A DNA stretch of 64,000 nucleotides from Candidatus Shapirobacteria bacterium (GCA_027039485.1 JALWDZ010000026.1:1093-65092); one strand, 5' to 3'. Shown: positions 15,598 to 64,000, numbered from the stretch's first letter. Numbers and translations: made by a program. Notes: generated by a model from the sequence alone, not told the origin.

Positions 15598-15800
15598 AGG
15601 GGAGACAAACAAATCATAATTACCAAAATCCTAAATTCTAAACTCTAAACAATGTTCAAATGACCAAAATTCAAATGTTCAAAACATCTTTGTCATCTTT
15701 CTTTTGTTTTGGTCATTTAATCATTGGGTAATTGTTTAGGATTTGGGTCATTAGGATTTAGGATTTGTTATTCCTAGTTTCATTTTTCATTTTTCGCTTT
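15598..15800. repeat. nested-palindrome MITE/REPIN-like element, short copy without core
   Basis: Left arm caaatcataattaccaaaatcctaaa...ttcaaatgttcaaaaca is the inverted complement of right arm tgttttggtcattt...ggatttaggatttg. Same family as the copies at 19.6, 33.5, 56.9 and 58.2 kb. Confidence 0.8.
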
Positions 15801-18876: not shown

Positions 18877-19632
18877 TTATCTTACCACAAAAGGGCGCAG
18901 GCGGCGGATTCCCATTTGTTTCAGTGGTTTTTTTACTTTATCTAGCAACGACTGGCCCGTTTTTAGTTTTTCAGGCCATCTTTGTTGCCAAAGTGGTTGG
19001 CCCGGCTTAACAATTTCGATAAAACCTAAATGGGGACCGGTGATCTTGGTTGTGCTGCTGGAATGAGCATAAGCTATTTTCTGGGCTTGTTGGCCGACTA
19101 CTACTAAAACATGGTCGATTCTCTTTTCGCTTTCAATTTGGGCCGGGATAATGTCGCCTTCGCGAATATTTTCTGGTAAAGGCTCTACAAAAATGGAATT
19201 TTTTTCATTAGTTAGGGCCCAGGTGTTAAAACGCCGCCGGGGATTTCGGCTAAAGCCCGGAGCCCATTGGAGCCCCTGCCAAAAACCCGGATGTAAAAAG
19301 TCCAGAATTTGGAACGCAAAACCAGAGCAATCGAGACCAATTCGCTTTTGTTGCATAAAACGGCGAATTTCCAAAGCTGGCATTTTTTGCCAATCCAACC
19401 CTTGCTGGCGCAGTTTAGCCAGAGTCACCCGGCGAATTTCGGCAGGAGTGCCCTTCCCTCCAAACGGCCCCTGAATGCGCCGCCCGAATTTCAGAAAACG
19501 GTTGCGCCAATAGGGAATTCTCACCGTCTTCTCGCCAAAAGGGAGAGCAAAAAAAGAGTTTAAAAATTGCTGCAAATCTTCTCTCATTTCTTTTAGAATA
19601 ACATACCCATAATAAAAATAACCAAATTCCAA
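18877..19632 (-). CDS. NlpC/P60-family peptidase-like protein (no obvious signal peptide)
   Basis: Catalytic Cys motif GLDCSGF, followed about 75 aa later by DHVLVVVG (the His region). Confidence 0.5.
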   Translation of the reverse strand: MEFGYFYYGYVILKEMREDLQQFLNSFFALPFGEKTVRIPYWRNRFLKFGRRIQGPFGGKGTPAEIRRVTLAKLRQQGLDWQKMPALEIRRFMQQKRIGLDCSGFAFQILDFLHPGFWQGLQWAPGFSRNPRRRFNTWALTNEKNSIFVEPLPENIREGDIIPAQIESEKRIDHVLVVVGQQAQKIAYAHSSSTTKITGPHLGFIEIVKPGQPLWQQRWPEKLKTGQSLLDKVKKPLKQMGIRRLRPFVVR

Positions 19633-20020
19633 ATCTCAAATTCCAACCCCCCCTTCGGTAGGGGCAGGCAAATCCTAATTACCAAAATCCTAAACCCTAA
19701 ACAATGTTCAAATGATCAAAATTCAAATGTTCAAAACATTTCTTTCCTGTCATCCCGCCCTTTCTTATGAAAGAGCGGGATCTAGCCGAAGGTGCATGGA
19801 ATACTATATATTGCGCTCGCTCTGCTCGCTAGATTTTTACCCCGACGTTACGTCTTGGGGCTTCGCTAACGCTCAGAATGACATAGTTTAAGTGTTTTGG
19901 TCATTTGGTCATTTGGATTTTGAGCATTATTTAGGATTTAGGTCATTAGGATTTTGGATTTGTTATTCCTAGCTCCTAGTTCTTAGTTCCTAGTTCCATT
20001 TTCTAACTCCTAGACTCTTA
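19630..20020. repeat. nested-palindrome MITE/REPIN-like element with GC-rich core (core in reverse orientation)
   Basis: Arms caaatcctaattaccaaaatcctaaaccctaaac.../...ggatttaggtcattaggattttggatttg. Core gtcatcccgcc...cggggtaaaaatctagcgag...ctcagaatgac. 3' cctag-rich tract. Confidence 0.8.
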
Positions 20021-31694: not shown

Positions 31695-33479
31695 CTAATA
31701 TTTAGCCACCCGGAGAACTTCCTCCACGGTGGTAATACCCTCTAACGCCTTCAAATAGCCATCCTGCATCATCGTTACCATGCCCTCCTTTACAGCCGCT
31801 TTTTTAATTTCCTCGGCCGGCGCTTGTTTAAGGATAAGCTGCATAATTGCATTAGTCACCGGCAAAGTCTCAAAAATCCCAATTCGACCGTAATAGCCGG
31901 TAAAGTTGCACCCCTGGCAGCCTTTGCCGCGGTAAAGCTTTGGTTGGTCACCGGCTTTGGGGGGCCAAAGCGGGCCAAGCACTTTTTTCATTCCTTCAAC
32001 CACTTTTTCTGGCGGCTGGTAACTTTCCTTACAGTCATTATGGATCCGGCGGACAATCCGTTGGGCAACCACTGCGTTCAAAGCAGAAACTAGCAAAAAG
32101 GGCTCAACCCCCATATCAATTAACCGTGGCGCAGCTCCGGCAGCATCGTTAGTATGTAGTGTCGAAAAAACCAAGTGGCCAGTAAGGGCTGCCTCAACCG
32201 CCAGTTCAGCCGTCTCTTTATCGCGAATCTCGCCAACCATAATAATATCCGGATCCTGGCGCAAAAACGAACGCAGGGCCGACGCAAAAGTAAGCCCCGC
32301 CTGGGGATTTACCTGGACCTGGTTAACCCCTTTGATGTGGTATTCAACCGGATCTTCGATAGTCATCACGTTAACTTTGGTAGTGTTAATCTTAGAAAGA
32401 ACTGAATAAAGAGTAGTCGTTTTCCCGGCTCCAGTTGGACCGCAGACCACAATCATTCCGTGGGGGCGGCTAATGGCCTCTTGCAAATCGCGGAGTGTTT
32501 TCCCCCGCAAACCTAATTCTGGCAAGTCGGGAATTTTTTGCGTTTTCTTCAAAAGCCGCATAACTACCTTTTCGCCATAGACAGTCGGTGCTGTCGAAAC
32601 CCGGACGTCGATTTCCTGCCCATCACTGCGAAAAGTAAAGCGCCCATCCTGGGGCACCCGCTTTTCATCGATTTTCATATCGGCCAAAATTTTAATTCGG
32701 GAAACAACGGCATCATGGATCCGCCGCGGCAAAATAAGTTTCTCTTGCAAAATGCCGTCAATGCGGTAACGGACCCGGGTATCGCCCTCTTGGGGTTCAA
32801 TATGAATATCCGAAGCCCGGGCCTTGACCGCAAATTGCAAAATTGTCGAAACAACCTTGGCAATTGGCGCCTCGTGGATAATATTCTCCAGATGGTTAAC
32901 ATCCAAGACATTCTTTTGATAAGTTTTAGCCGTTTCCCCTAGGGCCTTAGTCACCTCGGCGGTAATTTCCTGGTTATAATGTTCGTCGATTGTCTCCTGG
33001 ATAAGCTTTTTATCAGCCAGGTAAGGCTCTATTTTTAAGCCTGTTTTCTTTTCCAAAAACTCCACCGTCTCCAAATCTAAAGGATTGGCCATAGCCACCG
33101 CCAGCTTTTTCTCTTTAGGGTCATAACGAAAGGGCACCACCAGATAATACTCGGCCACGCTTCGGGGAATAAAAGTAATGCTTTGGGGATCGAAAGCAAT
33201 TTCTTCTAAATCAGCATAGGGAACGCCCAAAAACTTCGCCTTAGCAGCTAGCAATTTCTTGGTGGGGATTAGATTTTCTTCATGAATAATATCTTCCACA
33301 TTCTTGCCGGTTTGAATTGCCTTTAGTTGAATATTTTTTACCTGGGCTGGCGAGAGCAGCTTCTCCTGGGCCAGAACGTCCAAAAGCGAGTGGGGCAGTT
33401 TTGTTTCTTCCATCACTTCCATTATAAACAAAATAAATCCCAAATCACAAGCACCCTGCCCCGACGGACGTCGGGGCAA
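31695..33479 (-). CDS. pilB: type IV pilus assembly ATPase PilB (GspE family)
   Basis: N-terminal GSPII domain, Walker A GPTGAGKTTT, tetracysteine CQGC..., 594 aa. Confidence 0.9.
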   Translation of the reverse strand: MPRRPSGQGACDLGFILFIMEVMEETKLPHSLLDVLAQEKLLSPAQVKNIQLKAIQTGKNVEDIIHEENLIPTKKLLAAKAKFLGVPYADLEEIAFDPQSITFIPRSVAEYYLVVPFRYDPKEKKLAVAMANPLDLETVEFLEKKTGLKIEPYLADKKLIQETIDEHYNQEITAEVTKALGETAKTYQKNVLDVNHLENIIHEAPIAKVVSTILQFAVKARASDIHIEPQEGDTRVRYRIDGILQEKLILPRRIHDAVVSRIKILADMKIDEKRVPQDGRFTFRSDGQEIDVRVSTAPTVYGEKVVMRLLKKTQKIPDLPELGLRGKTLRDLQEAISRPHGMIVVCGPTGAGKTTTLYSVLSKINTTKVNVMTIEDPVEYHIKGVNQVQVNPQAGLTFASALRSFLRQDPDIIMVGEIRDKETAELAVEAALTGHLVFSTLHTNDAAGAAPRLIDMGVEPFLLVSALNAVVAQRIVRRIHNDCKESYQPPEKVVEGMKKVLGPLWPPKAGDQPKLYRGKGCQGCNFTGYYGRIGIFETLPVTNAIMQLILKQAPAEEIKKAAVKEGMVTMMQDGYLKALEGITTVEEVLRVAKY

Positions 33480-33930
33480 ATTCTAATTACCAAAATCCTA
33501 ATCCGCCAGCTGGCGGACTAAACAAATTCAAATGACCAAAATTCAAATGCTCAAAAACATTGAAACTGTGTCATTCTGAGCGTTAGCGAAGCCCCAGGAC
33601 GTTCCGCCAGCTGGCAGAGTCGGGGTAAAAATCTAGCGAAGCGCATTAATCCCACACCTGACTAACTCTCATGCGCTCGCTCCGCTCGCTAGATCTTTAC
33701 CCCTACCGAAGGTGGATTTATTCCACCGAAGGGGGGCTTCGTCGCTTCGCTCCTCAGGATGACAAGGGGAGATGTCTTTTGTTTTGGTCATTTGATCATT
33801 AGGTAATTTGGTTATTGTTTAGGATTTGGGTCATTAGGATTTAGGATTTTGCTCAACCTAGTTCCTAGCTCCATTTGAACTTTTCACTTTCCCCTTCTTT
33901 CTCACTTTTCACTTTTCACTTAAACTTTTC
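33478..33930. repeat. nested-palindrome MITE/REPIN-like element, longest copy, core present as an inverted duplication
   Basis: Arms aaattctaattaccaaaatcctaatc.../...ggatttgggtcattaggatttaggatttt. Internal 230-nt imperfect hairpin built from two inverted copies of gtcatYctgag...gaagcccc...ggggtaaaRatctagcga. 3' cctag/cactttt tract. Confidence 0.8.
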
Positions 33931-48479: not shown

Positions 48480-49411
48480 AGCAGCTCTTGGCGCAATGGC
48501 TGTTGTTTAATTGCCCGTCGCAGCCAGCGCCATTGGGCAATAGTTGCTAAAGTAACCCGCGGGCGAATGAGGATATTTTTTTGCACGAAATTATACATTT
48601 GTCCCAAGAAATAGGGTATTTGCCACCAAGGGCGGGCTTTAATAATTGTTTTCTCCAACGCCAAAAGAACTTCCTGCTGCCGCCTTTCCCGCGCCAAATC
48701 ATTGCCTTCTTGGGGATTACTGCTTTTACGGGAACGCATATATTCCAAAGCTCGCTGGCCGCTAAAATGGTGCCAACCCTTTTGGAAACTTACCGTCCGG
48801 ACACCATGGCTGCCATCATCGCGGGGAAAATGGCTATCCCGAAAGCTCCTTTCCACATAAATATCTATTCCCCCCAAAAAATCAATCAAATCGCGCACAT
48901 TAGCCATCGTTAACAGGGCAACTTGGTCGATCTTCTGACCGGTTAGCCGCTCCACTGTCGTTTTCAACAAGCCAAAGGGATGTTGGGGATCGCGCCGGCG
49001 GCCATAATAATAAAGGGCGTTTATTTTTGTCCGCTGGTCCTCCAGCCATAAATCGCGGGGAAGAGAAAAAAGCAAGCTTTTACCCGTCTTGGTATTAACG
49101 GTGACCAAAAGAATGGTATCGGTCAAAAGGGTCGGGTTATCGGGCCGCTGGTCAAGGCCTAGCAACAAAAACGAATGGTATTGGTTTCTGTCAGGATGCT
49201 GCCAGCCCCATTTTAAATCATGATAGAGCGCCGCCGGCTTTAGATGTGCTCCCCGGGCAAACTGCCAACCGGCCCAAAAGGAAAGGAAAACAGCAAAAAA
49301 AATAACTACCCCAACAACCAATAAACTAAAAATGGCCAACTTTTTAGCAATTTGAACCAGAAAAGGGATTACTTTTTGGCCAACCATGATAAGGGTTTTC
49401 TTGTTCGCCAT
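48347..49411 (-). CDS. LytR-CpsA-Psr (LCP) family protein
   Basis: N-terminal TM then LGLDQRPDNPTLLTDTILLVTVN...SLPRDLW, typical LCP core. Confidence 0.65.
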   Translation of the reverse strand: MANKKTLIMVGQKVIPFLVQIAKKLAIFSLLVVGVVIFFAVFLSFWAGWQFARGAHLKPAALYHDLKWGWQHPDRNQYHSFLLLGLDQRPDNPTLLTDTILLVTVNTKTGKSLLFSLPRDLWLEDQRTKINALYYYGRRRDPQHPFGLLKTTVERLTGQKIDQVALLTMANVRDLIDFLGGIDIYVERSFRDSHFPRDDGSHGVRTVSFQKGWHHFSGQRALEYMRSRKSSNPQEGNDLARERRQQEVLLALEKTIIKARPWWQIPYFLGQMYNFVQKNILIRPRVTLATIAQWRWLRRAIKQQPLRQELLWQGDAAILETGIDPYYGSWILQPRRGDYGLIKQFFQTQLRHLQ

Positions 49412-50538
49412 ATCGTGGGTAATTCTAACAAATTCTTAGCTAACCACCAAAACGTTGCCGGCCATAATTTCAGCGGCGTAGTTTTCAAAAGATAACTAAA
49501 ATTGCGCCCCCGCTCTAAGAGGATCGGCCACCAATAACGGCGCCAGGTTCGAGAAGGATAGTTCTTGATTAGCAGCCACCACCAATTGCGCACCGTCATC
49601 CGCTGGCGCAAATTTCCCATCTTCCGGCTCGTGGCTCCACCCTGGTGATAAGCTACCAACTGGGGCAAAAAAAGCATCTGCCAGCCCCTTTCCCGCAACC
49701 GCAGAGCCAGATCGACATCTTCTAAATAAGCAAAAAAGCGTTCATCAAAACCGCCAGCAGCCAAAAAAGCGTCCCGGCGATAAACTACCGCCGCCCCATT
49801 AAGGCCATCCGCCAAATGCGGTTTTTTTAGCCAGGCTTTAAATTTTTTTCGTGCCTCCGACCATTTCCAACCATTGGCAATATTTTCCGCCCGACCCGGC
49901 AAAAAATACCGTAACCCTAAACTTTCAACCCGGCGGCCAGTTCGATCTAGCACTATTCCGCCAAAGGCGGCCACCCGCTGTTGCCGGTATTGCCATAGGA
50001 TTAGCTCTAAATTCGCCAGCCAATTATCAGCCAGGCGCACATCATCATTCAAGACCAAAAGATAATCGCCCCGGGCCGCCTTTGCCCCCTGATTCACCGC
50101 TCTCGCAAAACCAAGGTTTGTTTTATTAAAAATAGTTTTGATTACTATGCCAGGGGGTATGGAGAAGACGCTATCATCATGTTGGTTGTTCTCACCTTCA
50201 TTGTTGTTCCATGATTTTCTTCTCTCTTTTTTGTTTGGAATTTGAGGTTTGTAATTTTGATATTGTTTGTAATTTGCCTGCCTGCGCAGGCAGGGTGCTT
50301 GGTGCTTGGAATTTAATTCCTTGAGGAATTCTTTACTGCCATCATGAGAATTGTTATCAATGATGATTATTTCTAGGTTTTGTATTTGGTCATTTAAATT
50401 TTGATATTGTTTGTAATTTGCCTGCCTGCGCAGGCAGGGGATTTGGGATTTGGAATTTACAGCCCTAAAAAGGCTGTTGAGGCATTCTTGGAGAAGGTCT
50501 CGTCCCTGGAAATGGGGAATAATAACCGAAAGTTTCAT
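49369..50538 (-). CDS. glycosyltransferase family 2 carrying two in-frame repeat-derived insertions
   Basis: GT2 N-terminus (LSVIIPHF...CLNSL) and core (EIIIIDNNSHDGS, NLGFARAVNQG, ED motif). Two low-complexity inserts encode SKSQIPCLRRQANYKQYQN... Confidence 0.7.
   Translation of the reverse strand: MKLSVIIPHFQGRDLLQECLNSLFRAVNSKSQIPCLRRQANYKQYQNLNDQIQNLEIIIIDNNSHDGSKEFLKELNSKHQAPCLRRQANYKQYQNYKPQIPNKKERRKSWNNNEGENNQHDDSVFSIPPGIVIKTIFNKTNLGFARAVNQGAKAARGDYLLVLNDDVRLADNWLANLELILWQYRQQRVAAFGGIVLDRTGRRVESLGLRYFLPGRAENIANGWKWSEARKKFKAWLKKPHLADGLNGAAVVYRRDAFLAAGGFDERFFAYLEDVDLALRLRERGWQMLFLPQLVAYHQGGATSRKMGNLRQRMTVRNWWWLLIKNYPSRTWRRYWWPILLERGRNFSYLLKTTPLKLWPATFWWLAKNLLELPTIWRTRKPLSWLAKK
50140..50460. 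repeat. repeat-element-derived segment inside the GT2 gene (two copies of the palindrome CCTGCCTGCGCAGGCAGG plus ggatttgg k-mers)
   Basis: tttgatattgtttgtaatttgcctgcctgcgcaggcagg occurs twice (about 50268 and 50414). Near-identical to 53624..53900. Confidence 0.75.
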
Positions 50539-51632: not shown

Positions 51633-52949
51633 TTGCCTATGCTTGCCAATATTTTCATCAATTTCTTGGCCCAAGGTTATCTTTTCCTCATTTCGTTTTT
51701 TACCCTGCCAGCCATCCTCCACTATCTCGGCAAGGAACAATTCGGCTTTTTAGCCTTAGCCGCCGCTCTCCTCAATTACGCCACTACTTTCGACTTTGGC
51801 TTTGGGGCCGCCCTTACCCAACGGGTAGCTTACCTCCACTCCCAAAACCGCCGCCAGCAACTAAAAACCACCATCCAAACTGGCTTTTTAACCTACACTC
51901 TCCTAGCCGCCGCCATTATCATTTCCCTTGATCTTTTCGCCCAGCCTATCCTTCACCTCTTTAACCTTTCACCCCAACTTTTTGGCCAGGCCCAGAAAAT
52001 CATGCCCCTCATCGCCCTTAACATCGGCCTTTACTTCCCCACCATTTTTGCCGCCAGCATTTTCCAGGCCGAAAACCATTTCTGGCGCTATAATTTGCGC
52101 ACTTTTATCGTTGGCACTGCCAATACCCTCGGCGTTTTTTTCCTCGCTAGCCGCCACTTTCCCCTCATTGCCATTTTCCAACTCCAAACCGCCGCCTTAC
52201 TTCTTACTTTAGCCCTCGATTTCTGGCTCCTCCGCTCCTACCTGGCTTATCCCCACTTTTCCCGCCGCCATTTTCTTCAACTCGGCCGCTTCGCCCTTTT
52301 TAAATTTCTGAGCAACACCGCCGGCCAAATCAGCACCCAATTCCCCAAATTTTTCCTTGCTTCCCTGGTCAATGTCGCCAGCGTCAGTTATTTCACCGTC
52401 CCTTTTTCTCTCATCCAAAAACTAGGGGTCATCCTTTCCCAAATCTACATCGTTTTCTTCCCCAAGATAGCCCACCTCAACGGCCGCCAGCAATCGGCAA
52501 AAATCCGCCGCCTTTTCCAACGGGGCCAACTTCTGGTCGCCATCATTACCATCCCTGCTATTGCCTTGGGCTTCTGGCTTGGGCCACTTTTCCTCAACTG
52601 GTGGCTGAAAGATCCCCAATTTGTCCGGCAAATCTTGCCCGTCTTTAATATTCTTCTCGTTTACTTTCTGGTCCACGCTTTCACGGCCATTCCGGTGGCT
52701 ATTCTTGAAGGCATTAACCAACCCCAACTGCCGGCTCTTTTAGCTTGGATTAATGCCGCTATCACCATCGGCGGCGGTTATTTCCTTATCAAACGCCTAG
52801 CCGCTCCCGGCGCTGCTCTCACTCTTCTCGGTTACACCCTTGTCACCGGACCTTCGGTTATCCTTCTCGCCTGGCGCAGCTTAAAAATCCCAAAGCCAGC
52901 GCCAAAGCCGCCACTGGACCTTAGCTCTAGTCAACCGCTCCCGCAATAA
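51633..52949 (+). CDS. oligosaccharide flippase (Wzx/MOP superfamily) polysaccharide biosynthesis protein
   Basis: 438 aa, about 12-14 TM, typical Wzx organisation. Confidence 0.6.
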   Translation: MPMLANIFINFLAQGYLFLISFFTLPAILHYLGKEQFGFLALAAALLNYATTFDFGFGAALTQRVAYLHSQNRRQQLKTTIQTGFLTYTLLAAAIIISLDLFAQPILHLFNLSPQLFGQAQKIMPLIALNIGLYFPTIFAASIFQAENHFWRYNLRTFIVGTANTLGVFFLASRHFPLIAIFQLQTAALLLTLALDFWLLRSYLAYPHFSRRHFLQLGRFALFKFLSNTAGQISTQFPKFFLASLVNVASVSYFTVPFSLIQKLGVILSQIYIVFFPKIAHLNGRQQSAKIRRLFQRGQLLVAIITIPAIALGFWLGPLFLNWWLKDPQFVRQILPVFNILLVYFLVHAFTAIPVAILEGINQPQLPALLAWINAAITIGGGYFLIKRLAAPGAALTLLGYTLVTGPSVILLAWRSLKIPKPAPKPPLDLSSSQPLPQ

Positions 52950-53987
52950 TTGGGCAAAAGCATTGCCCAAAAAAGTAAAACTTAAAACAAGACGATAAAG
53001 CCAAAGCGGGTAATGGTGCTTTCGTAAAAATAGGAAAAGCGAGGCAAAATAGCGCCGGTAAAATTGCCACCGCTCTTTCATTTTCCAATTTTTCCAACTC
53101 CCACCGCCAAAGTGAATTATTTCCGCCGCTGGCACCACCACCAACTTACCCAATCCTAATTTTTTAACTCGGTACGACCAGTCAACATCTTCAAAAAAGA
53201 AAAAATAATCCTCGTCAAGGCCTTTTGTTTTTTGCCAAACTGTCCGCCGAGCCAGCAAAGCTGCCCCCGGCAATTGTTCAACTGGCGTTGGCATTTTGCT
53301 CACCTGGCTAAAGACCAGCCACTTTAGCGGCGTGGCTGTCACCAGCCAGCGGCCGGCCAGGCTATGGTAAAACGCCATTTGCCAAAGGTTAGGAAAACGC
53401 ATATAGTAGCGCTGCTGAAAACTGCCGTCGGGGTTTAATAACCTAGGAGACACGGCGGCCACATCGCCATGTTTTTCTAAATAGCCCACCATCTTCTCTA
53501 AGGCTCCCTTCTTAACAATAGTATCTGAATTAAGAAGAAGGATATATTTGCCTCTGGCAATTCTTATTCCTTGGTTGTTAGCCTTTGCAAAACCAAGGTT
53601 TGTTTTATTAAAGATAGTTTTAATGGCTATGCCCTGGGGTATAGAAAAAATACCACTGTGTCGGTTATTTTCACTTTCACTGTCATTCTGAGATTTTCTT
53701 CTTTTCTTTTTGTTTAGAATTTGAGATTTGGGATTTGGAATTTGGGATTTGGAATTTAATTCCTTGAGGAATTCTTTACTGCCATCATGAGAATTATTAT
53801 CAATGATGATTATTTCCATGTTTTGAATTTGGTCATTTAAATTTTGATATTGTTTGTAATTTCCCTGCCTGCGCAGGCAGGGAATTTGGGATTTGGAATT
53901 TACAGCCTCAAAAAGGCTGTTGAGGCATTGTTGGAGGAGATCCTTAGTGTTGTAATTGACAATGATAATGGAGAGGAGAGGACTCAT
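52881..53987 (-). CDS. glycosyltransferase family 2 carrying in-frame repeat-derived insertions (paralog of 49369..50538)
   Basis: LSIIIVNYNTKDLLQQCLNSL, EIIIIDNNSHDGS, NLGFAKANNQG, DEDYFFFFEDVDW. Inserts encode SKSQIPCLRRQGNYKQYQN... and SQIPNPKSQILNKKKRRKS... Confidence 0.7.
   Translation of the reverse strand: MSPLLSIIIVNYNTKDLLQQCLNSLFEAVNSKSQIPCLRRQGNYKQYQNLNDQIQNMEIIIIDNNSHDGSKEFLKELNSKSQIPNPKSQILNKKKRRKSQNDSESENNRHSGIFSIPQGIAIKTIFNKTNLGFAKANNQGIRIARGKYILLLNSDTIVKKGALEKMVGYLEKHGDVAAVSPRLLNPDGSFQQRYYMRFPNLWQMAFYHSLAGRWLVTATPLKWLVFSQVSKMPTPVEQLPGAALLARRTVWQKTKGLDEDYFFFFEDVDWSYRVKKLGLGKLVVVPAAEIIHFGGGSWKNWKMKERWQFYRRYFASLFLFLRKHHYPLWLYRLVLSFTFLGNAFAQLLRERLTRAKVQWRLWRWLWDF
53624..53900. 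repeat. repeat-element-derived segment inside the GT2 gene (palindrome CCTGCCTGCGCAGGCAGG, tandem gggatttggaattt)
   Basis: Near-identical at nucleotide level to the 50140..50460 segment (e.g. gaatttaattccttgaggaattctttactgccatcatgagaatt). Confidence 0.75.
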
Positions 53988-56889: not shown

Positions 56890-57250
56890 ACCTACCTGTG
56901 CAGGCAGGCAATACTAAAATCCTAAATTCAAAATCCTAAACTATAAACAAATTCAAATGACCAAAATCCAAATGTTCTAAACATTTCTTTTTCTTTGCCT
57001 TTTTCTTTTGTTTTGGTCATTTGGTTATTTAATCATTTGGTAATTGTTTAGGATTTGGGTCATTAGGATTTAGGATTTGTTTGTGATTTGGTGTTTGGGA
57101 TTTGGAATTTGGTGCTTTTTTGACCTAGTTCCTCCAACCTAGCTCTTAGTTCCACTTTAACTTCTTTTCCACTTTACACTTGAATTTTTCACTTCCTTAG
57201 CCCTTCGCCCTTAGCTCTTAGCCCCTTCTTACCTAGTTCCTAGTTCCAAT
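56890..57250. repeat. nested-palindrome MITE/REPIN-like element (no GC core; degenerate CCTG...CAGG palindrome at left end)
   Basis: Arms ...aaaatcctaaattcaaaatcctaaactataaac.../...ggatttgggtcattaggatttaggatttg. Contains gtgtttgggatttggaatttgg, the same k-mers as the GT inserts. Long cctagttcctag tract. Confidence 0.8.
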
Positions 57251-58246: not shown

Positions 58247-58665
58247 ACAAATCCTAAATCCTAATGACCCAAATCCTAAACCTGCCTGCGCAGGCAGGTA
58301 AATCTAAAATTCAAATGACCAAATGACCGAAACCTTGTCACCCTGAACGAAGCTGAAGGCGGAGTGAAGCCCCAGCACGTTCCGCCAGCCGGCGGAGTCG
58401 GGGTAAAGATCTAGCCGAAGGCGCATGGAAAAGGATATTAGGGTATCAGGTTAATTTTCTTTTTTCTTTTTCTTTCTTTCTCTGTTCTTCTGATCTCTGA
58501 TTCTCTTTCCCTGATTACCTAATTCTTCCTGATATTCTACATTATTTAATCCCCTTTTCTTTACTGAGTTCTAAGTTCTGAATATCTAAATGTTTAGAAC
58601 ATTTGGATTTTGGTCATTTGATATTGTTTAGAATTTAGGATTTAGGATTTTGAATTTATCTTCTT
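58245..58665. repeat. nested-palindrome MITE/REPIN-like element with perfect palindrome and GC-rich core
   Basis: caaatcctaaatcctaatgacccaaatcctaaacctgcctgcgcaggcaggtaaatc... Core gtcaccctgaacgaagctgaaggcggagtgaagcccc...cggggtaaagatctagccgaaggcgcatgg. Right arm ...ggattttggtcatttgatattgtttagaatttaggatttaggatttt. Confidence 0.8.
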
Positions 58666-59163: not shown

Positions 59164-60623
59164 AAAAGAAAATAACTTATGCTTTATTGACCATTTTTAC
59201 TCTCCTCGGTTTCTATTGGCGCCTGGCTGGCCTCCGGCAAGGCTATTCCTTTTGGACCGACGAGAATCATGTAGCCATTTTCGCCCGGGCAATTCTCCGC
59301 CGCCAAACCCCTGTTCTCGACAACGGCTACAACACCGGCCTTTACCAATATCTTTGGTATTGGCTCACCGCCCTGCCCATGGCCCTAATTTCACCCCCCG
59401 AATTTGCCGCTCGCTTACCGGCAGTTTTCTTTGGCCTAGCCACTATTCTCATGGTTTATCTCCTTGGCCGGGAATTTTTTGACCCCCTCAGCGGCTTATT
59501 GGCCAGTTTTTTGGCAGCATTTTTGCGCATTGAAATCCTCTGGTCCCGCCAGGCCCGCCCCTACCAGGCTTTGCAATTTTTCCTTCTCCTGGCCGCCTTC
59601 CTGCTTCTTCGCTATTCCAAAAGTCCCAACCGCCGCCAGAAAATAGCCTATTTTGCGGGATTTTTGCTAACCGCCGTTCTGGCCAGCCTCTGCCACGGTC
59701 TCGGCCTCCTCATTTTCCTCGACGGCTTTCTCTTTCTCCTTTTGACCTCTCCCTCCCTCTCGCTCATCGCCGCCACCGGCGTTGCCACCATCCTTCTCAG
59801 CCTGCCATTCCACAAACTTTTATTAGCCATCCTCGCCAAACTGGGCCAGACCAACAATCTTTTCTACTACCGCGTTCTCCTTACTCATCATTATTTGCCT
59901 CTAACCATTCTGGCCGGCCTTGGTTTTTTCTGGCTCGGCTACCAAAGCTTCCGCCAGCCAAAATTGCGCGCCCCCTTCCTTCTTCTCACCATCCCCTTAG
60001 TCATCCAGACTCTGGTAGTTAGCCTTGCCCTTGGCCAACCCTTCGTCCGCTATTTTTACATTACCTTTCCCTTCCTCATTCTTCTGGCTGTTAGCCCATT
60101 TTTTCTCGCCCAGCATTTAGTTCCCCCAAAACGCTTTCTGGCCCTTAGCCTCGTCAGCCTTCTTCTTCTCGCTACCCTGCCCCAACTCGCCCTCCGACCC
60201 CAGAAATATTATTCCCTTAACCGCGATATGCAAGAAATTCCCGAAGTCGATTGGCAAAAAATTTATGCCCTGGTAAAAGCCTGGCGCCAAAGTCACCCCC
60301 AGGCACCGCTGGTAGTCAATTGGAATGATCTGCCAGTTTGGTATCTTGGGGAAAATCTTAGCCACCTTTACCTGCTCCGCTCTGCCCCCGCTTCCTATGA
60401 CCCACTTTCTGGAGCCAAAATTCTCCACTCAACCAATGAGCTAAAAAAACTTATCCACCAATACCCCGCCGGCTTAATCGTCCTTGATAGCTGGGATGAC
60501 CGGGTTCCCGCCGGCGTCCGCCAATATTGCCGGCAAAATCTCCACCATGAAGCCGAGGTTCGCCAACTTTTTCCCCGCCAGCCCCGCCCCTGGCCAGTTA
60601 ATATTTATTCCTGGCCTCTTTAA
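59160..60623 (+). CDS. GT39/ArnT-like polytopic membrane glycosyltransferase
   Basis: About 11-12 TM, N-terminal FWTDENHVA (DE motif in the first extracytoplasmic loop), C-terminal soluble domain. Confidence 0.5.
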   Translation: MKKKITYALLTIFTLLGFYWRLAGLRQGYSFWTDENHVAIFARAILRRQTPVLDNGYNTGLYQYLWYWLTALPMALISPPEFAARLPAVFFGLATILMVYLLGREFFDPLSGLLASFLAAFLRIEILWSRQARPYQALQFFLLLAAFLLLRYSKSPNRRQKIAYFAGFLLTAVLASLCHGLGLLIFLDGFLFLLLTSPSLSLIAATGVATILLSLPFHKLLLAILAKLGQTNNLFYYRVLLTHHYLPLTILAGLGFFWLGYQSFRQPKLRAPFLLLTIPLVIQTLVVSLALGQPFVRYFYITFPFLILLAVSPFFLAQHLVPPKRFLALSLVSLLLLATLPQLALRPQKYYSLNRDMQEIPEVDWQKIYALVKAWRQSHPQAPLVVNWNDLPVWYLGENLSHLYLLRSAPASYDPLSGAKILHSTNELKKLIHQYPAGLIVLDSWDDRVPAGVRQYCRQNLHHEAEVRQLFPRQPRPWPVNIYSWPL

Positions 60624-61989
60624 GGGCCTGTTTTTCCAACATTTGCCAAAAGCGCTGCCTTTCTTGAGGGGTTGCCTTCTGGGAATCATAATAGGTAAAC
60701 CAAACCCGATTGCTCGCCTTCTTTCTGCCAGCGCCATCTTTCACTTGGACCCAAATCCAGCCGGTTTTCGAAAGTAAGGGGTCAATTTCTACTACAATCA
60801 GCTTATCGCTCCACGCTTTTATTCTCTGGGGCCGGCCAGCTAAGAAAACCTCCGAGGTAAAAGGCAAATTGCGAAAATTGCGCCCATAGATTTTCACCGC
60901 CATATAACGGCTGGCAATATCGGGATCTATCCGTAGAATGTAGGGTTGGAATTCAAATTTAGCCCGCGCATAACGAAAAATCCTCTGGTTGCCCCGCCAA
61001 AACAACAAAAGCAAGCCAACCAAAATTATTTTCCGCCATCGCCAAGTCGCTCTTTTTTTTAGCCAGAAAATTATTGCCAGAAAAATTAAAATGAGCCAGA
61101 ATCCTAGCAAATAAGGCAAAAGCCGGCCACCGAATTCCAGCCAAAATTTATTTTCAAAAAACCGCCGGTAAAATTGGATTTCCCGACTTATGCCCAATAT
61201 TCCTAAAATCCCCAATATTCCCCCGGTAATTTCCCAAAAATATTTAGCCGCCACTAATGCTAAAGTCAAGATTACCTTTCCTATTGCTGCCATGCCCCGC
61301 CACCACCAACTCCTTCGTTCCCTCATTGTTACCAAATCTCGCGCCCACTGTTCCCGTTTCACTATCAACACCACCACCGCCTTTTGCGTTAGCAGACTAA
61401 TGCCCACTAGCATATACCTCACCAGCCCCTTTATCACCCACCCCGTCAGCGTTATCAGCCTTCTATCCGCGCCATCCGCATGTATACTATCCGCGTCATC
61501 CGCGTTCTCCGCTCCCATCAGCATTATCCGCGCTCTTATACCATCCGCGCTATCTGCGAGTTTTTTAATAAACTCGTCAAAATCCCGCCAACCTCCTTCT
61601 ATATCGCCCACAGGGCGTATATCGTCCCGCTTGCGGGGCATATTTCTATTTGTATCGCTCGCGCCAGCGAGCATGTTTCTATGTATTTCTATTAATTGTT
61701 GGATAACGCCAACCACCAGAAACATATAAGTCCAGATAGCCGCTTTTTCAGCAATTGCTTCTTGTTTGGCCATTAACAAAAAGGGGCACATCATCAAGAA
61801 AATAAGGGCCCCAAAAATAGAAAACCGCCCCTCCAGCCGCCAGCCGATCACCGCCCCAATCCAAATCGCCGTCAATCCCATAATCACCACATCCGATGTA
61901 AACCGGAAAACAAAAATATCCATCAAAATGCCGACAATTGCCGCGATTAAAAAGAAATTACGGTGATGAATAAAATATTTTTTAATCAT
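60598..61989 (-). CDS. hypothetical polytopic membrane protein with C-terminal Ig/IPT-like domain, interrupted by REP-derived in-frame segments
   Basis: N-terminal TM helices, central region encoded by atccgcg-rich and GC-hairpin repeats (...NMLAGASDTNRNMPRKRDDIRPVGD...), C-terminal beta-rich domain. Confidence 0.4.
   Translation of the reverse strand: MIKKYFIHHRNFFLIAAIVGILMDIFVFRFTSDVVIMGLTAIWIGAVIGWRLEGRFSIFGALIFLMMCPFLLMAKQEAIAEKAAIWTYMFLVVGVIQQLIEIHRNMLAGASDTNRNMPRKRDDIRPVGDIEGGWRDFDEFIKKLADSADGIRARIMLMGAENADDADSIHADGADRRLITLTGWVIKGLVRYMLVGISLLTQKAVVVLIVKREQWARDLVTMRERRSWWWRGMAAIGKVILTLALVAAKYFWEITGGILGILGILGISREIQFYRRFFENKFWLEFGGRLLPYLLGFWLILIFLAIIFWLKKRATWRWRKIILVGLLLLFWRGNQRIFRYARAKFEFQPYILRIDPDIASRYMAVKIYGRNFRNLPFTSEVFLAGRPQRIKAWSDKLIVVEIDPLLSKTGWIWVQVKDGAGRKKASNRVWFTYYDSQKATPQERQRFWQMLEKQALKEARNKY
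61430..61700. repeat. REP-like GC-rich hairpin cluster (tandem tatccgcg motifs plus gtcccgcttgcggggc and cgctcgcgccagcgagc hairpins)
   Basis: Hairpins with 7-bp GC stems in AT-rich background, matching units in 62985..63880. Confidence 0.7.
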
Positions 61990-62594
61990 TCCTTATAATA
62001 CGCATCTTCTGCCCAATTACGAGGATTATTAACAATATATTGGCGAATGTTTTCCAATGATTTCTGATTTCTAATAATTCGTTCGTAATAATTGCGTTGC
62101 CAAATTTTGCCGGCAAACGGCGGCCAATTATGTTGTTTTACATTGCGGATATATTCGTTGGTGGTCATCCGTTTAAACCATGAAATATACCGCCCCAACC
62201 CTTCATATGTATTCGGGATATTTCGTTTCGTCTGTAGGGGCGATTCCGTGTAATCGCCCTGTTGATCCGGCGATTCCGTTAACGGGCGAAAACATGGTTT
62301 CGCCAAATCATCCGGGCGAAAACATGGTTTCGCCCCTACAATTTGAATAATGCCGTGGATGTGGTTGGGCATAATAATAAATTCATCCAATTGTATCCGA
62401 CGATATTTCGCCGGTAATTTTTGCCACCAACGGTACACCATTCTGCCAATTTTGTTCATTACCATTTCGCCATTTTCTATTCGACCAAATAAATTCACCC
62501 GATTATGCACACAAATGGTAATAAAATAATATCCGGGTTGGCGATAATCGTAATTTGGCAACCTAATTGTCCTCCTATGAAAAATTTTTGCCAT
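61986..62594 (-). mobile_element. REP-associated tyrosine transposase (RAYT; IS200-like Y1 transposase) with an in-frame palindromic insertion
   Basis: HuH motif IMPNHIHGII, C-terminal WQRNYYERIIRNQ...YIVNNP block typical of 'transposase IS200-like' (PF01797) REP-associated enzymes. Duplicated 24-nt palindrome gggcgaaaacatggtttcgcc at 62270..62340 encodes AKPCFRPDDLAKPCFRP. Confidence 0.75.
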
Positions 62595-62602
62595 CTAATT
62601 CG

Positions 62603-64000
62603 TTAATGTATTAATTTTTTAAGAATTAATGTGTATCCTAGATATCCTACTGATCCCATTAAGGTCATCAGACTTATAAACAACCCAATGTAGAAAAACC
62701 GCTGGGGCCAGAATTCGACAATCAATTCATAATTTTCCCGCCCGCCAACATCGCTGGGTTTGATATACCAACTATTGGCATAGCCATTCACCAAATAATG
62801 CCGGTCTTCGGCAATTGGTTGTTTGCCCCAGGTTTCAAAAGTGGCCGGTTCCAAAAAGGTCATCCGGTGCGTGCCTTCTTTTATCTCGCCATTAAAATAA
62901 CTAGCCACCTCCGGCCCGTATCCCTTATTCTTCAAAAACCACCCCGTCACCCTCGCCGCCACTTTCCCCACAATTCCCATTAAATTATTTCTATTTGTAT
63001 CGCTCGCGCTAGCGAGCATGTTTCTATTTGTTTCGCCCCGTAAGGGCATATTTCGCGCCGAAGGCGCATATAACTTCCACCCTTTATGAAAACTTTCTGA
63101 AAACACCAGCGTATACGGCCCCTTCGCCCCGGTTACTTTTACCCGATATTTTGTCGGATTGATTTTGACAAACTCTATTTTAGGAAACCCTTTTTCAGTT
63201 TCATGAGCCGAAGACAGATTTATATCGTCCGAAGGGCTTGTATCGTCCCGCTTGCGGGACATATTTCTATTTGTATCGCGAGCGTCAGCGAGCTTATTTC
63301 TATCTATATCTTGTTTGTAATTTAGAATCTGTTTATTAATTTTCGAATTCGTTAATAAATTAATTGACTTTAATATAATCTCCGGTACTATAACCCGCCT
63401 CACTTCCAATTTCGCCAACGCCCCCACCTCAACCCCTTTTAATACCAATCGCCCTTCATCGGCAAAATTGCCAGCTTTAAAATAAGCAACAAAACTATTT
63501 CCGTTTGTATCGCCCGCAGGGCGTATTTCGCGAGCTCCGCTGTGGCGGGGCGAGCTTGTTTCGCGAGCGCCAGCGAGCATGTTTCCATCTATTTCTTTAA
63601 TTATTTTCCATTCCTCACCTTCTTTCCTTTCCTCTATTAAAATCTCCCCCGCCGGCTTTACCCCCTTCTTTAGCCGCCCTTCCACCCGATACCACTCTCT
63701 TCCCCTATATTCACCTATCCTTAGGGCAAAATTATTTTCTTCCTTTTTATCGCGAGCGTTAGCGAGCGTGTTTCTGTCTGTATCGCCCGCAGGGCTTGTA
63801 TCGTCCCGCTTGCGGGGCATGTTTCTATTTGTATCGCTCGCGTTAGCGAGCATATTTCCATTTATATCTATCAAATTTTTACTTAATCCCCTTATCGGTA
63901 AAACTATTTCCTGTTTTCCCGCCTTAAAATACCTCTCCCCCCACTCTTGCCACCCACTTATATCGCCCGAAGGGCTTGTATCGTCCCGCTTGCGGGACAT
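62603..64000 (-). CDS. hypothetical tail-anchored protein heavily invaded by in-frame REP-like units (5' partial; ORF continues past the window end)
   Basis: C-terminal TM (FFYIGLFISLMTLMGSVGYLGY). Peptide NMLA.ASDTNRNMPRKRDDTSPAGD recurs at least 5 times, each encoded by the same ~85-nt triple-hairpin DNA unit. Confidence 0.35.
   Translation of the reverse strand: MSRKRDDTSPSGDISGWQEWGERYFKAGKQEIVLPIRGLSKNLIDINGNMLANASDTNRNMPRKRDDTSPAGDTDRNTLANARDKKEENNFALRIGEYRGREWYRVEGRLKKGVKPAGEILIEERKEGEEWKIIKEIDGNMLAGARETSSPRHSGAREIRPAGDTNGNSFVAYFKAGNFADEGRLVLKGVEVGALAKLEVRRVIVPEIILKSINLLTNSKINKQILNYKQDIDRNKLADARDTNRNMSRKRDDTSPSDDINLSSAHETEKGFPKIEFVKINPTKYRVKVTGAKGPYTLVFSESFHKGWKLYAPSARNMPLRGETNRNMLASASDTNRNNLMGIVGKVAARVTGWFLKNKGYGPEVASYFNGEIKEGTHRMTFLEPATFETWGKQPIAEDRHYLVNGYANSWYIKPSDVGGRENYELIVEFWPQRFFYIGLFISLMTLMGSVGYLGYTLILKKLIH
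62985..63880. repeat. array of dispersed ~85-nt REP-like triple-hairpin units (copies near 62990, 63230, 63490, 63750, 63960)
   Basis: The unit is catgtttctatttgtatcgctcgcgNtagcgagcat, then gtcccgcttgcgggacat, then gcccgaagggc; each block has a 4-7 bp GC stem. Confidence 0.75.

What the first reader, a model, noticed from the sequence alone, without database searches (positions are those of the whole stretch)
60598..64000. REPtron: a RAYT transposase flanked by triple-hairpin REP-like units that sit in frame inside both neighbouring ORFs
Seen in sequence: the ORF at 61986..62594 has the HuH motif (MPNHIHGII) and the C-terminal WQRNYYERIIRNQ block of REP-associated tyrosine transposases. Within about 1.5 kb on either side there are at least six copies of an ~85-nt unit made of three GC-stem hairpins (cgctcgc-NNNN-gcgagcg; gtcccgc-tt-gcgggac; gccc-gaa-gggc) in an AT-rich background. 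Every copy is in the same reading frame of the host ORFs, so ORFs 62603..64000 and 60598..61989 encode the repeated peptide 'NMLA(N/G)ASDTNRNM(P/S)RKRDD(T/I)(S/R)P(A/S/V)GD'. Established knowledge: RAYTs mobilise REP/REPIN sequences, and Rickettsia palindromic elements are the classic case of palindromic repeats tolerated in frame inside proteins. A RAYT-linked family doing this in a streamlined genome is unusual. Whether the host proteins still function with the inserts is unknown.
Basis: partly seen in the sequence, partly recalled or inferred. Interest (0 to 1): 0.8.

Follow-up and report, generated by a model that had tools for sequence, protein, structure and literature searches.

The report
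In-frame hairpin repeats beside a RAYT gene
Two envelope-protein genes of a candidate-phyla (Patescibacteria-like) bacterium carry short hairpin-plus-linker DNA repeats inserted in frame on either side of a RAYT transposase-like gene, which is a real new example of a phenomenon already described in other bacteria, though the link to the RAYT is not shown.

Summary
ORF 61986..62594(-) is a RAYT of TnpA_REP subclass 2.4 with intact HuH and Tyr motifs. Six clusters of GC hairpins joined by a conserved A-rich linker lie only at 61.6-64.0 kb. All are on one strand and in one reading frame. One cluster is in the downstream gene and at least five are in the upstream gene. The downstream insert (25 aa) is missing from all 11 homologs, including a 76%-identical ortholog that also sits beside the RAYT. 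Copies differ mainly at codon positions 1 and 2, so the repeat is a DNA-level element and not a selected peptide.

The "REPtron" reading is only partly supported. The modules lack the GTAG foot and none is inverted. They are absent from the other 61 kb and from two public collections. They differ from the GTAG-footed REP pair that sits inside the RAYT gene. A second hairpin-plus-heptamer family sits in frame in two GT2 glycosyltransferase genes 8-13 kb away.

In-frame REPs in host genes and in subclass 2.4 RAYT genes are already published. Verdict: a new variant of a known kind, of moderate interest. Side finding: the RAYT's internal REP pair is inverted in place, in frame, relative to its orthologs.

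The parts
61986..62594 (-). RAYT (TnpA_REP subclass 2.4 / Bertels group 4), 202 aa. It has the HuH motif MPNHIH (H78, H80), WQRNYY and the Tyr motif YIVNNP (Y186). Its stop overlaps the start of the downstream gene (ATGA), and its start lies 8 nt after the stop of the upstream gene.
   Evidence: subclass motifs NH[IFV]H / WQ / YIxNNP from PMC6006769 Table 1
62234..62339 (.). REPIN-like pair of GTAG-footed hairpins inside the RAYT ORF. The arms are GTAGGGGCGATTCCGTGTAATCGCCC (62234-62259, +) and GTAGGGGCGAAACCATGTTTTCGCCC (62314-62339, -), with a second tandem 30-nt copy at 62284-62304. It encodes the variable loop VGAKPCFRP...GDYTESPL. The 106-nt core is inverted in place relative to its orthologs.
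   Evidence: I1, I3; 40 of 45 family members carry such hairpins
60598..61989 (-). Downstream host gene (ORF-D), 463 aa. It has an N-terminal helical membrane part and a C-terminal IPT/TIG-like beta domain, and it is conserved in relatives.
61598..61689 (-). Module cluster D1 in ORF-D. On the coding strand it reads linker-A hairpin, linker-B hairpin, short linker-C hairpin. It encodes RNMLAGASDTNRNMPRKRDDIRPVGDI. It is a net 75-nt insertion absent from all homologs, and ATAGAA is present at both junctions.
   Evidence: the model places the insert mostly in low-confidence coil (pLDDT <50 from residue 114; coil 113-135)
62603..64000 (-). Upstream host gene (ORF-U). This is the C-terminal 465 codons of a large membrane protein; it runs off the window, and 628 codons are seen when L002 is added. 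It has a conserved C-terminal domain and a terminal TM helix. A few distant homologs carry PF11847.
62985..63070 (-). Cluster U5 with hairpins GCGCC-gaa-GGCGC, GCCC-cgtaa-GGGC and GCTCGC-gcta-GCGAGC plus linkers. It encodes APSARNMPLRGETNRNMLASASDTNRN, in a loop of variable length in the conserved C-terminal domain.
63219..63310 (-). Cluster U4, a triple unit: a non-hairpin A' form (GCGAGC..GCGAGC), the B hairpin GTCCCGC-tt-GCGGGAC and a decayed C hairpin. It encodes NKLADARDTNRNMSRKRDDTSPSDDI. Orthologs have a gap at this position.
   Evidence: (z=-1.1)
63495..63595 (-). Cluster U3, a variant: a C hairpin, a composite GC-rich segment and an A' form. It encodes NMLAGARETSSPRHSGAREIRPAGDTNG.
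63746..63874 (-). Cluster U2, four modules (A, B, C, A'). It encodes NMLANASDTNRNMPRKRDDTSPAGDTDRNTLANARD.
63958..64000 (-). Cluster U1 (C and B hairpins), cut by the window end. It continues to about 64030 in L002. It is 96.6% identical over 58 nt to cluster U4. A further cluster, with hairpin GTTCCGAT-tgc-ATCGGAAC, lies about 300 nt beyond the window.

Best explanation
What it is. These are DNA-level modules, like REPs or Rickettsia palindromic elements, that have been written in frame into loop regions of two envelope-protein genes. Each module is a short GC-rich stem-loop (13-19 nt). On the + strand it is preceded by the foot T[AT]TC and followed by the heptamer NTRTWTC. On the coding strand the repeat is GATACAAATAGAAAYATG plus a 15-nt hairpin, 33 nt or 11 codons.

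What is shown. The modules are insertions relative to orthologs. They are conserved as DNA and not as peptide. They are read in the only hydrophilic frame of the four open frames, so they add polar, probably disordered loops that the proteins tolerate. The resident gene between the two hosts is an intact subclass 2.4 RAYT that entered this slot before the split from its nearest relative.

What is inferred. The copies arose by local copying within about 2.5 kb. My single most likely driver (about 40%) is the adjacent HuH-Y1 enzyme acting on single-stranded foot-plus-hairpin modules and inserting them 3' of a TATC. This would explain the uniform orientation, the conserved 4-nt foot on otherwise different hairpins, and the position on both sides of the gene. 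Selection then kept only copies in the polar frame. The modules are not the canonical GTAG REPs of this RAYT class, so this step is unproven. RAYT-independent template switching is nearly as likely (see rivals).
For: - The repeats are real, lie on one strand and are confined to 61.6-64.0 kb.
- The 25-aa insert in ORF-D is absent from 11 homologs, including the 76%-identical P0137, whose gene also overlaps a RAYT ortholog.
- The ORF-U clusters fall at gaps or variable loops of the homolog alignment.
- Relatives L009 and L011 keep ORF-U and ORF-D adjacent, without a RAYT and without modules.
- Differences between copies by codon position are 15, 12 and 6, and 25 codons differ nonsynonymously against 6 synonymously.
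- Four of six frames are open, and the frame used is the only hydrophilic one (Kyte-Doolittle -1.73 against +0.66 to +1.63).
- Of 17 hairpins, 13 have the 5' foot TATC and 4 have TTTC.
- The RAYT catalytic motifs are intact and match subclass 2.4.
- There is precedent: REPs of this RAYT class insert in frame in genes (PMC6006769, PMC3733652).
- The RAYT's own internal hairpin-plus-linker array changes copy number between relatives, 2 against 4 units of 30 nt. This shows that in-frame hairpin arrays are dynamic in this lineage.
Against: - The modules lack GT[AG]G and the GGG-bottomed 8-9 bp stems of the hairpins inside the RAYT gene.
- No module is inverted and none is intergenic.
- Three of six A-type copies cannot form the hairpin, and one unit does not fold better than shuffles.
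- Copies are 4-20% diverged, so there is no sign of a recent burst.
- The relative L004 has the RAYT next to ORF-D but no insert.
- The relative L008 has a related cluster with the shared linker CGAAATACAGTAGAAACA in the ORF-U ortholog, with no RAYT on its 8-kb contig.
- None of 80 RAYT loci from other species shows such clusters.
- A second module family sits in frame in GT2 genes 8-13 kb away.
- ATAGAA microhomology at both junctions of the ORF-D insert fits template switching equally well.
Confidence: 0.55

Rival explanations
1. The RAYT plays no part. The modules spread by replication template switching or slippage at hairpins and heptamer repeats, and by ectopic gene conversion between nearby sequences. 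The RAYT merely landed in the same permissive slot.
For: - ATAGAA is present at both junctions of the ORF-D insert.
- The clusters are tandem arrays that begin and end in the linker.
- The two GT2 paralogs are 50% identical as proteins but 93% identical over 201 nt across their insert region, which shows active gene conversion (D5, 57).
- The same slot holds a 23S_rRNA_IVP gene in L009 and nothing in L011, so it is an insertion hotspot.
- A different module type (AAATYCC heptamers) occupies the homologous ORF-U loop in L008.
- The modules are unlike the RAYT's own REPs.
Against: - It does not explain why five different hairpin sequences all keep the same 4-nt foot and linker, or why all lie on one strand.
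- The ORF-D insert needs a donor 1.6-2.2 kb away with only 6 nt of homology.
- The only copies in 64 kb lie in the two genes that touch the RAYT.
Confidence: 0.35
2. The modules belong to a separate class of very small mobile hairpin elements nested in heptamer repeats, like the cyanobacterial SDR/STRR elements. They are moved by an unknown enzyme that is not necessarily encoded nearby.
For: - The linkers resolve into NTRTWTC heptamers with hairpins between them.
- A second family, AAATYCC heptamers with the hairpin CCTGCCTGCGCAGGCAGG, occurs both between genes (56891, 58281) and in frame in GT2 genes (D14, 53, 55-58).
- The heptamers are shared with the organism of L008.
- The architecture matches what I recall of Elhai et al. 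2008, Genome Res 18:1484. That paper could not be read here; it is cited in PMC4390886.
Against: - Family 1 is confined to two adjacent genes.
- It has no exact matches in public collections, and the linker pattern found only L008's contig among 36 hits.
- No candidate enzyme is identified.
Confidence: 0.15
3. The repeated peptide is a functional protein repeat kept by selection, and the hairpins are incidental.
For: All copies are in one frame and encode a similar polar peptide.
Against: - Differences concentrate at codon positions 1 and 2, and nonsynonymous changes outnumber synonymous ones 25 to 6.
- The peptide has no homolog among 1.84 billion representative proteins.
- It is absent from orthologs.
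- It lies in a low-confidence coil of the model.
Confidence: 0.04
4. The flanking ORFs are non-coding, or the repeats are an assembly artefact, so 'in frame' means nothing.
For: The Logan contig ends just short of a module cluster and the ENA contig ends inside this repeat-rich gene. Antisense ORFs are open across the repeats.
Against: - Both ORFs have homologs with conserved domains on both sides of the inserts.
- Three assemblies agree base for base.
Confidence: 0.01

Closest known systems
Intragenic GTAG/CGTC REPs (Di Nocera et al. 2013, PMC3733652)
   Same: These are short palindromic repeats found inside conserved genes, in frame. They often occur as dimers or clusters that encode 20-30 aa (up to 82 aa), in genomes that carry RAYTs.
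   Different: Here the hairpins have no GTAG or CGTC tag and their stems are only 4-7 bp. Several different hairpin sequences share one linker, and the copies are confined to two adjacent genes instead of being dispersed.
TnpA_REP subclass 2.4 / RAYT group 4 with REPs inserted in frame in its own gene (Quentin et al. 2018, PMC6006769)
   Same: The RAYT here matches the subclass motifs (NHIH, WQ, YIVNNP, about 194 aa). It carries GTAG-footed, GGG-bottomed hairpins in frame between the HuH and Tyr motifs.
   Different: The paper describes cognate REPs flanking the gene. Here no canonical REP lies outside the gene in 64 kb, and the flanking repeats are a different kind of module. The paper does not mention an in-place inversion of the internal pair.
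Rickettsia palindromic elements (RPE; Ogata et al. 2000, as summarised in PMC3733652)
   Same: They are palindromic elements inserted in frame into genes that likely still encode functional proteins. They are absent from orthologs and appear to be tolerated in peripheral regions.
   Different: As I recall, RPEs are conserved elements of about 100-150 bp dispersed over many genes, whereas these are modular 33-nt units in two genes. Sequence similarity was not tested.
Cyanobacterial STRR heptamer repeats with nested small dispersed repeats (Elhai et al. 2008; from memory, cited in PMC4390886)
   Same: The architecture is the same: very small hairpin modules sit between tandem heptamers, both between genes and within conserved sequences. 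Subclass 2.4 RAYTs are abundant in cyanobacteria.
   Different: The phylum and the sequences differ. No link between SDRs and RAYTs is established. I could not read the paper here.
REPIN-RAYT systems (Bertels & Rainey 2011, PMC3116915; Bertels et al. 2017, PMC5581495)
   Same: Both have a single-copy, vertically inherited RAYT with hairpin repeats nearby.
   Different: REPINs are inverted REP doublets, extragenic, and present in tens to hundreds of copies. Only RAYT groups 2 and 3 show that association; group 4 is linked to 16-mers only slightly more frequent than background. The only REPIN-like doublet here lies inside the RAYT ORF.

Membership tests
RAYT / TnpA_REP subclass 2.4 (Bertels group 4) | HuH motif NH[IFV]H | tested here: met
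   MPNHIH is present; H78 and H80 are invariant in 21 homologs. The motif is taken from PMC6006769 Table 1.
RAYT / TnpA_REP subclass 2.4 (Bertels group 4) | WQ motif and Tyr motif YIxNNP (class 2 signature Y---NP) | tested here: met
   WQRNYY and RQYIVNNP are present; Y186, I187 and N190 are invariant. These regions align to the WQ and YIYINP regions of 4ER8.
RAYT / TnpA_REP subclass 2.4 (Bertels group 4) | Variable insertion between the HuH and Tyr motifs, made of in-frame REP sequences | tested here: met
   The loop VGAKPCFRP...GDYTESPL is encoded by GTAG-footed hairpins. 40 of 45 family members have hairpins with 6-12 bp stems (typically 8-9 bp) there.
RAYT / TnpA_REP subclass 2.4 (Bertels group 4) | Passes curated family cut-offs | tested here: inconclusive
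   Pfam Y1_Tnp scores 24.4 against 23 and passes. NCBIfam REP_Tyr_transpos scores 57.4 against 80 and fails, because the domain is split by the loop.
REPtron (RAYT flanked by its cognate REPs) | REPs immediately flank the gene in intergenic DNA | tested here: not met
   The gene is packed with an 8-nt gap and a 4-nt overlap. The nearest modules are about 290 and 390 nt away, inside ORFs.
REPtron (RAYT flanked by its cognate REPs) | Flanking repeats carry the 5' GT[AG]G foot of the class | tested here: not met
   The foot of the modules is T[AT]TC. GTAGGGGCGA...TCGCCC occurs only inside the RAYT ORF.
REPtron (RAYT flanked by its cognate REPs) | The same repeat family is dispersed in the genome | tested here: not met
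   There are 0 copies in the other 61.5 kb and 0 exact matches in genome contigs and metagenome contigs. The remainder of the source genome is not testable with these tools.
REPIN | Two REPs in inverted orientation that form a long hairpin | tested here: not met
   There are no inverted copies of the modules. The only such pair (I1, 41-nt arms, 78% complementary) lies inside the RAYT ORF.
In-frame palindromic insertions (RPE-like / intragenic REP) | Insertion in a conserved gene, absent from orthologs, with the reading frame kept | tested here: met
   ORF-D has a 25-aa insert missing in 11 homologs. The ORF-U clusters lie at gaps in the alignment. The ORF stays open for 628 codons.
In-frame palindromic insertions (RPE-like / intragenic REP) | Stem-loop potential of the inserted DNA | tested here: met
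   Three small hairpins per unit, z of -2.4 to -3.5. However, 3 of 6 A-type copies and one C copy have lost pairing.
In-frame palindromic insertions (RPE-like / intragenic REP) | The insert lies in a surface loop and the host protein stays functional | tested here: inconclusive
   The AF2 model places the insert mostly in low-confidence coil (pLDDT <50 from residue 114; coil 113-135), but the model is poor overall (mean pLDDT 64.8). Function is not testable here.
Hairpins nested in heptamer repeats (STRR/SDR-like) | Small hairpin modules inserted between tandem heptamers | tested here: met
   Family 1 has NTRTWTC heptamers on both sides of each hairpin. Family 2 has AAATYCC arrays with CCTGCCTGCGCAGGCAGG. 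Homology to the cyanobacterial elements was not tested.

The most novel reading that the evidence does not exclude
Subclass 2.4 RAYTs may be the missing enzyme for very small foot-plus-hairpin modules that nest in heptamer repeats (SDR/STRR-like). In this Patescibacteria lineage the enzyme would write such modules in frame into loops of envelope proteins (ORF-U, ORF-D, two GT2 enzymes). It would also flip and expand the REP pair inside its own gene. That would make it a codon-phased cassette system that diversifies protein loops.
Probability: 0.12. Interest if true: 0.8.

Novelty: new variant of a known kind. Interest (0 to 1): 0.45.

Why it matters
The finding extends in-frame REP-like insertions to a candidate-phyla (Patescibacteria-like) genome. 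It shows an unusually modular form: different hairpins share one foot and one linker, with an exact 11-codon period. Conserved enzymes tolerate the inserts, including loops of the GT2 Rossmann fold.

If the RAYT link were proven, it would give a tractable substrate set for the poorly understood subclass 2.4 RAYTs, namely the internal GTAG REPs and the TATC-foot modules. It could also connect RAYTs to the unexplained small dispersed repeats of cyanobacteria.

For genome annotation, the practical lesson is that such loci break assemblies and create long spurious antisense ORFs.

Tried and rejected
- An exact 22-mer of the B hairpin was searched in 185,579 species genomes and in JGI metagenomes, with 0 hits in each. 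Copy number outside this organism could therefore not be measured.
- The linker pattern CGAAATACAGTAGAWACA in metagenomes gave 36 single hits. Only L008's own contig carried modules; the rest are chance.
- A 43-aa repeat peptide searched against 1.84 billion representative proteins gave 0 hits. Sensitivity for short partial matches is low.
- Rfam gave nothing in 60-64 kb at E<=1 and only tRNAs in the whole window.
- I looked for k-mers of the RAYT's internal hairpins elsewhere in the window and found only two chance 11-mers. The flanking modules are therefore not copies of the internal REPs.
- I screened 80 RAYT loci from other species for similar clusters of small GC hairpins in AT-rich flanks and found none.
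- The Elhai 2008 paper is not held in the library.
- Rejected readings: an assembly artefact, non-coding ORFs and a selected protein repeat.
Full report
**1. The observation**

ORF 61986..62594(-) encodes 202 aa with MPNHIHGII and WQRNYYERIIRNQ. Three searches of the B hairpin, the A hairpin and the linker give 4, 6 and 8 matches. All are on the + strand and all lie between 61.6 and 64.0 kb. Dinucleotide shuffles expect 0 to 0.1 matches.

The repeat finder recovers four copies of a 103-nt unit at 66-86% identity to the reference (three complete triple-hairpin units at 80-86%). The Logan contig L001 and the ENA contig L002 are independent assemblies. Both are identical to the window here, and L002 adds 491 nt beyond the window end.

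**2. Anatomy of the repeat**

On the coding (-) strand the unit is an 18-nt linker GATACAAATAGAAAYATG followed by a 15-nt GC-rich stem-loop. That makes 33 nt, or 11 codons.

There are at least five hairpin sequences:
- GCTCGC-nnnn-GCGAGC
- GTCCCGC-tt-GCGGGAC
- GCCC-nnn-GGGC
- GCGCC-gaa-GGCGC
- GTTCCGAT-tgc-ATCGGAAC (this one lies in L002, beyond the window)

On the + strand, 13 of 17 hairpins are preceded by TATC and 4 by TTTC. Each is followed by a heptamer NTRTWTC. The linkers are therefore built of heptamers, with hairpins nested between them.

Three of the six A-type copies are GCGAGC..GCGAGC, which is a direct repeat and cannot pair. Most units fold as three separate small hairpins with z of -2.4 to -3.5, but the 63215-63315 copy reaches only -1.1.

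Seven clusters are seen. One is in the downstream gene. Six are in the upstream gene; four of these lie wholly in the window, one is cut by its end and one lies beyond it.

**3. The host genes are real and the modules are insertions**

ORF-D (60598..61989) has 18 homologs. In an alignment of 12 sequences, the block NMLAGASDTNRNMPRKRDDIRPVGD is missing from all 11 others. These include P0137, which is 76% identical. At DNA level this is a net 75-nt insertion with ATAGAA at both junctions. An AlphaFold model of modest quality (mean pLDDT 64.8) places the insert mostly in low-confidence coil (pLDDT <50 from residue 114; coil 113-135) after the N-terminal helical bundle.

ORF-U is the C-terminal part of a large membrane protein. 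Its C-terminal domain is conserved in P0121-P0127. The clusters fall at alignment gaps or in loops of variable length.

Differences between copies lie mostly at codon positions 1 and 2 (15, 12 and 6 by position). Nonsynonymous codon differences outnumber synonymous ones 25 to 6. The repeat is therefore conserved as DNA and not as peptide.

Four of the six frames of a unit are open, and the frame in use is the only hydrophilic one. The simplest reason for the uniform frame is selection for a polar peptide that fits in a loop.

**4. The RAYT**

Pfam Y1_Tnp is just above its cut-off. The NCBIfam RAYT equivalog is significant but below its cut-off, because the domain is split. A profile of 21 homologs hits E. 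coli TnpA-REP 4ER8.

The motifs NHIH, WQ and YIVNNP, the length, and a variable insertion between the HuH and Tyr motifs match TnpA_REP subclass 2.4, which equals Bertels group 4, as tabulated in PMC6006769. The family is very large and spans many phyla.

That paper already reports that REPs are inserted in frame inside subclass 2.4 genes. I see the same here: 40 of 45 homologs from GTDB genomes carry GC hairpins with 6-12 bp stems (typically 8-9 bp) in that loop, encoding VGADLCVCP and GEHxGSPL. In this window the loop holds a GTAG-footed inverted pair at 62234-62339.

**5. Is this a REPtron?**

Synteny shows that ORF-U and ORF-D are ancestral neighbours. They are adjacent in L011. In L009 they are separated by a 23S_rRNA_IVP gene. 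In this genome and in L004 they are separated by the RAYT. The RAYT is thus an old insertion in a permissive slot. Neither L009 nor L011 has modules.

Points for a link between the RAYT and the modules:
- The only module-bearing genes in 64 kb are the two that touch the RAYT.
- All modules lie on one strand and share a 4-nt foot next to the hairpin, which is the logic of HuH-Y1 substrates.
- The enzyme's motifs are intact.

Points against a link:
- The modules have no GTAG foot, and their stems are shorter and different from the RAYT's own hairpins.
- There are no inverted or intergenic copies.
- There are none elsewhere in the window or in two public collections.
- L004 has the RAYT but no insert in ORF-D.
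- L008 has a related cluster with the same linker at a different site of the ORF-U ortholog, with no RAYT on its contig.
- None of 80 RAYT loci in other species shows such clusters.

Only RAYT groups 2 and 3 are clearly tied to abundant REPINs (PMC5581495).

**6. A wider habit of this genome**

Two GT2 glycosyltransferase paralogs (49369..50538 and 52881..53987, both -) carry in-frame inserts. The inserts are built of AAATYCC heptamers and the hairpin CCTGCCTGCGCAGGCAGG. They sit in two loops of the conserved fold, and Pfam splits the domain into two stretches.

The same hairpin and heptamers also occur between genes at 56891 and 58281. In L008 the heptamers occupy the ORF-U loop that holds a family-1 cluster here. 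In-frame nesting of hairpins in heptamer repeats is therefore not special to the RAYT flanks.

**7. Mechanism and comparison with what is known**

The modules are DNA-level insertions, translated as polar loops and copied locally. I rate the possible drivers as follows:
- RAYT-catalysed single-strand copying, about 40%.
- RAYT-independent template switching or gene conversion, about 35%.
- A separate SDR-like mobile class, about 15%.
- A selected protein repeat, below 5%.

The closest published parallels are:
- intragenic GTAG/CGTC REPs (PMC3733652);
- REPs inside subclass 2.4 RAYT genes (PMC6006769);
- Rickettsia palindromic elements;
- cyanobacterial heptamer repeats with nested small dispersed repeats (this last from memory).

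The features that differ here are the shared foot and linker across different hairpins, the exact 11-codon period, the confinement to two genes, and the host phylum.

**8. Side finding**

The 106-nt core GTAGGGGCG...CGCCCCTAC inside the RAYT ORF is the reverse complement of the arrangement in L004 and L003. The inverted sequence aligns to L004 at about 92% identity over about 100 nt. Both orientations are open in frame. Relatives also differ in the number of 30-nt hairpin-plus-linker units, 2 here against 4 in L004. PMC6006769 does not mention inversion.

**Verdict**

This is a new variant of a known kind, of moderate interest.

Noticed in passing
window 62234-62339: The 106-nt REP pair inside the RAYT ORF (GTAGGGGCG...CGCCCCTAC) is inverted in place relative to the orthologs in L004 and L003. 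It stays in frame in both orientations: VGAKPCFRP...GDYTESPL here against VGAIPCNRP...GENxVSPL in the relatives. This could be a one-off recombination between the inverted feet or an active flip. I found no mention of it in PMC6006769.
   Followed up: yes
window 62284-62339; L004 about 130-300: The 30-nt hairpin-plus-linker unit GGGCGAAAACAYGGTTTCGCC+AAATCATCC in the RAYT loop is present twice here and four times in L004 (GENTVSPNHP x4). Other family members show similar in-frame tandem expansions, for example L051, L079, L089 and L099.
   Followed up: partly
window 49369-50538 (-) and 52881-53987 (-); inserts at about 50155-50316, 50374-50463, 53643-53759, 53814-53906: Two GT2 glycosyltransferase paralogs carry in-frame inserts of AAATYCC heptamers plus the palindrome CCTGCCTGCGCAGGCAGG (peptide NSKSQIPCLRRQANYKQYQN). 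The inserts sit in two loops of the conserved fold. The paralogs are 50% identical as proteins but 93% identical over 201 nt across the insert region, which suggests gene conversion.
   Followed up: partly
window 15600-15775, 19600-19960, 33470-33850, 56890-57110, 58250-58660: Long palindromic intergenic repeats whose arms are heptamer arrays (AAATCCT / AGGATTT, TTTGGTCA). In three of them a further GC-rich element of about 200-250 nt is nested at the centre (for example 33585-33637 and 58363-58415, 91% identical). They gave no Rfam match.
   Followed up: no
window 61465-61549: Five of the nine ATCCGCG heptamers in the whole window cluster within 85 nt of ORF-D, all on the + strand. They encode ADSADGIRARIMLMGAENADDADSIHADGADRR. 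The segment is shared with the L004 ortholog but not with more distant homologs, so it may be an older in-frame repeat insertion.
   Followed up: partly
window 63322-63373; L002 about 20-80; P0122 (L005): An AT-rich palindrome around CGAATTCG encodes INLLTNSKINKQ and recurs as INLLTNSRINGLKGK upstream in ORF-U. The homolog P0122 has INGLTDSRINGLKDR-like peptides three times. This may be a third in-frame repeat family in this protein family.
   Followed up: no
L009 7550-7942; L011 8001-8008; window 61986-62602: The junction between ORF-U and ORF-D holds a RAYT here and in L004, a 23S_rRNA_IVP (four-helix-bundle) gene in L009, and nothing in L011. It looks like a hotspot for insertion of small mobile genes.
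   Followed up: partly
L056, L062, L096, L112: In these RAYT loci from other phyla, the hairpin found inside the RAYT ORF also occurs just outside the gene (29-85 shared 12-mers). This fits the published picture that the internal hairpins are copies of the cognate flanking REPs.
   Followed up: partly
window 61190-61729 (+) and other antisense ORFs across 61.2-63.0 kb: Long antisense ORFs (up to 179 aa) are open across the repeat region because the modules lack stops in four frames. Gene callers are likely to produce spurious calls here.
   Followed up: no
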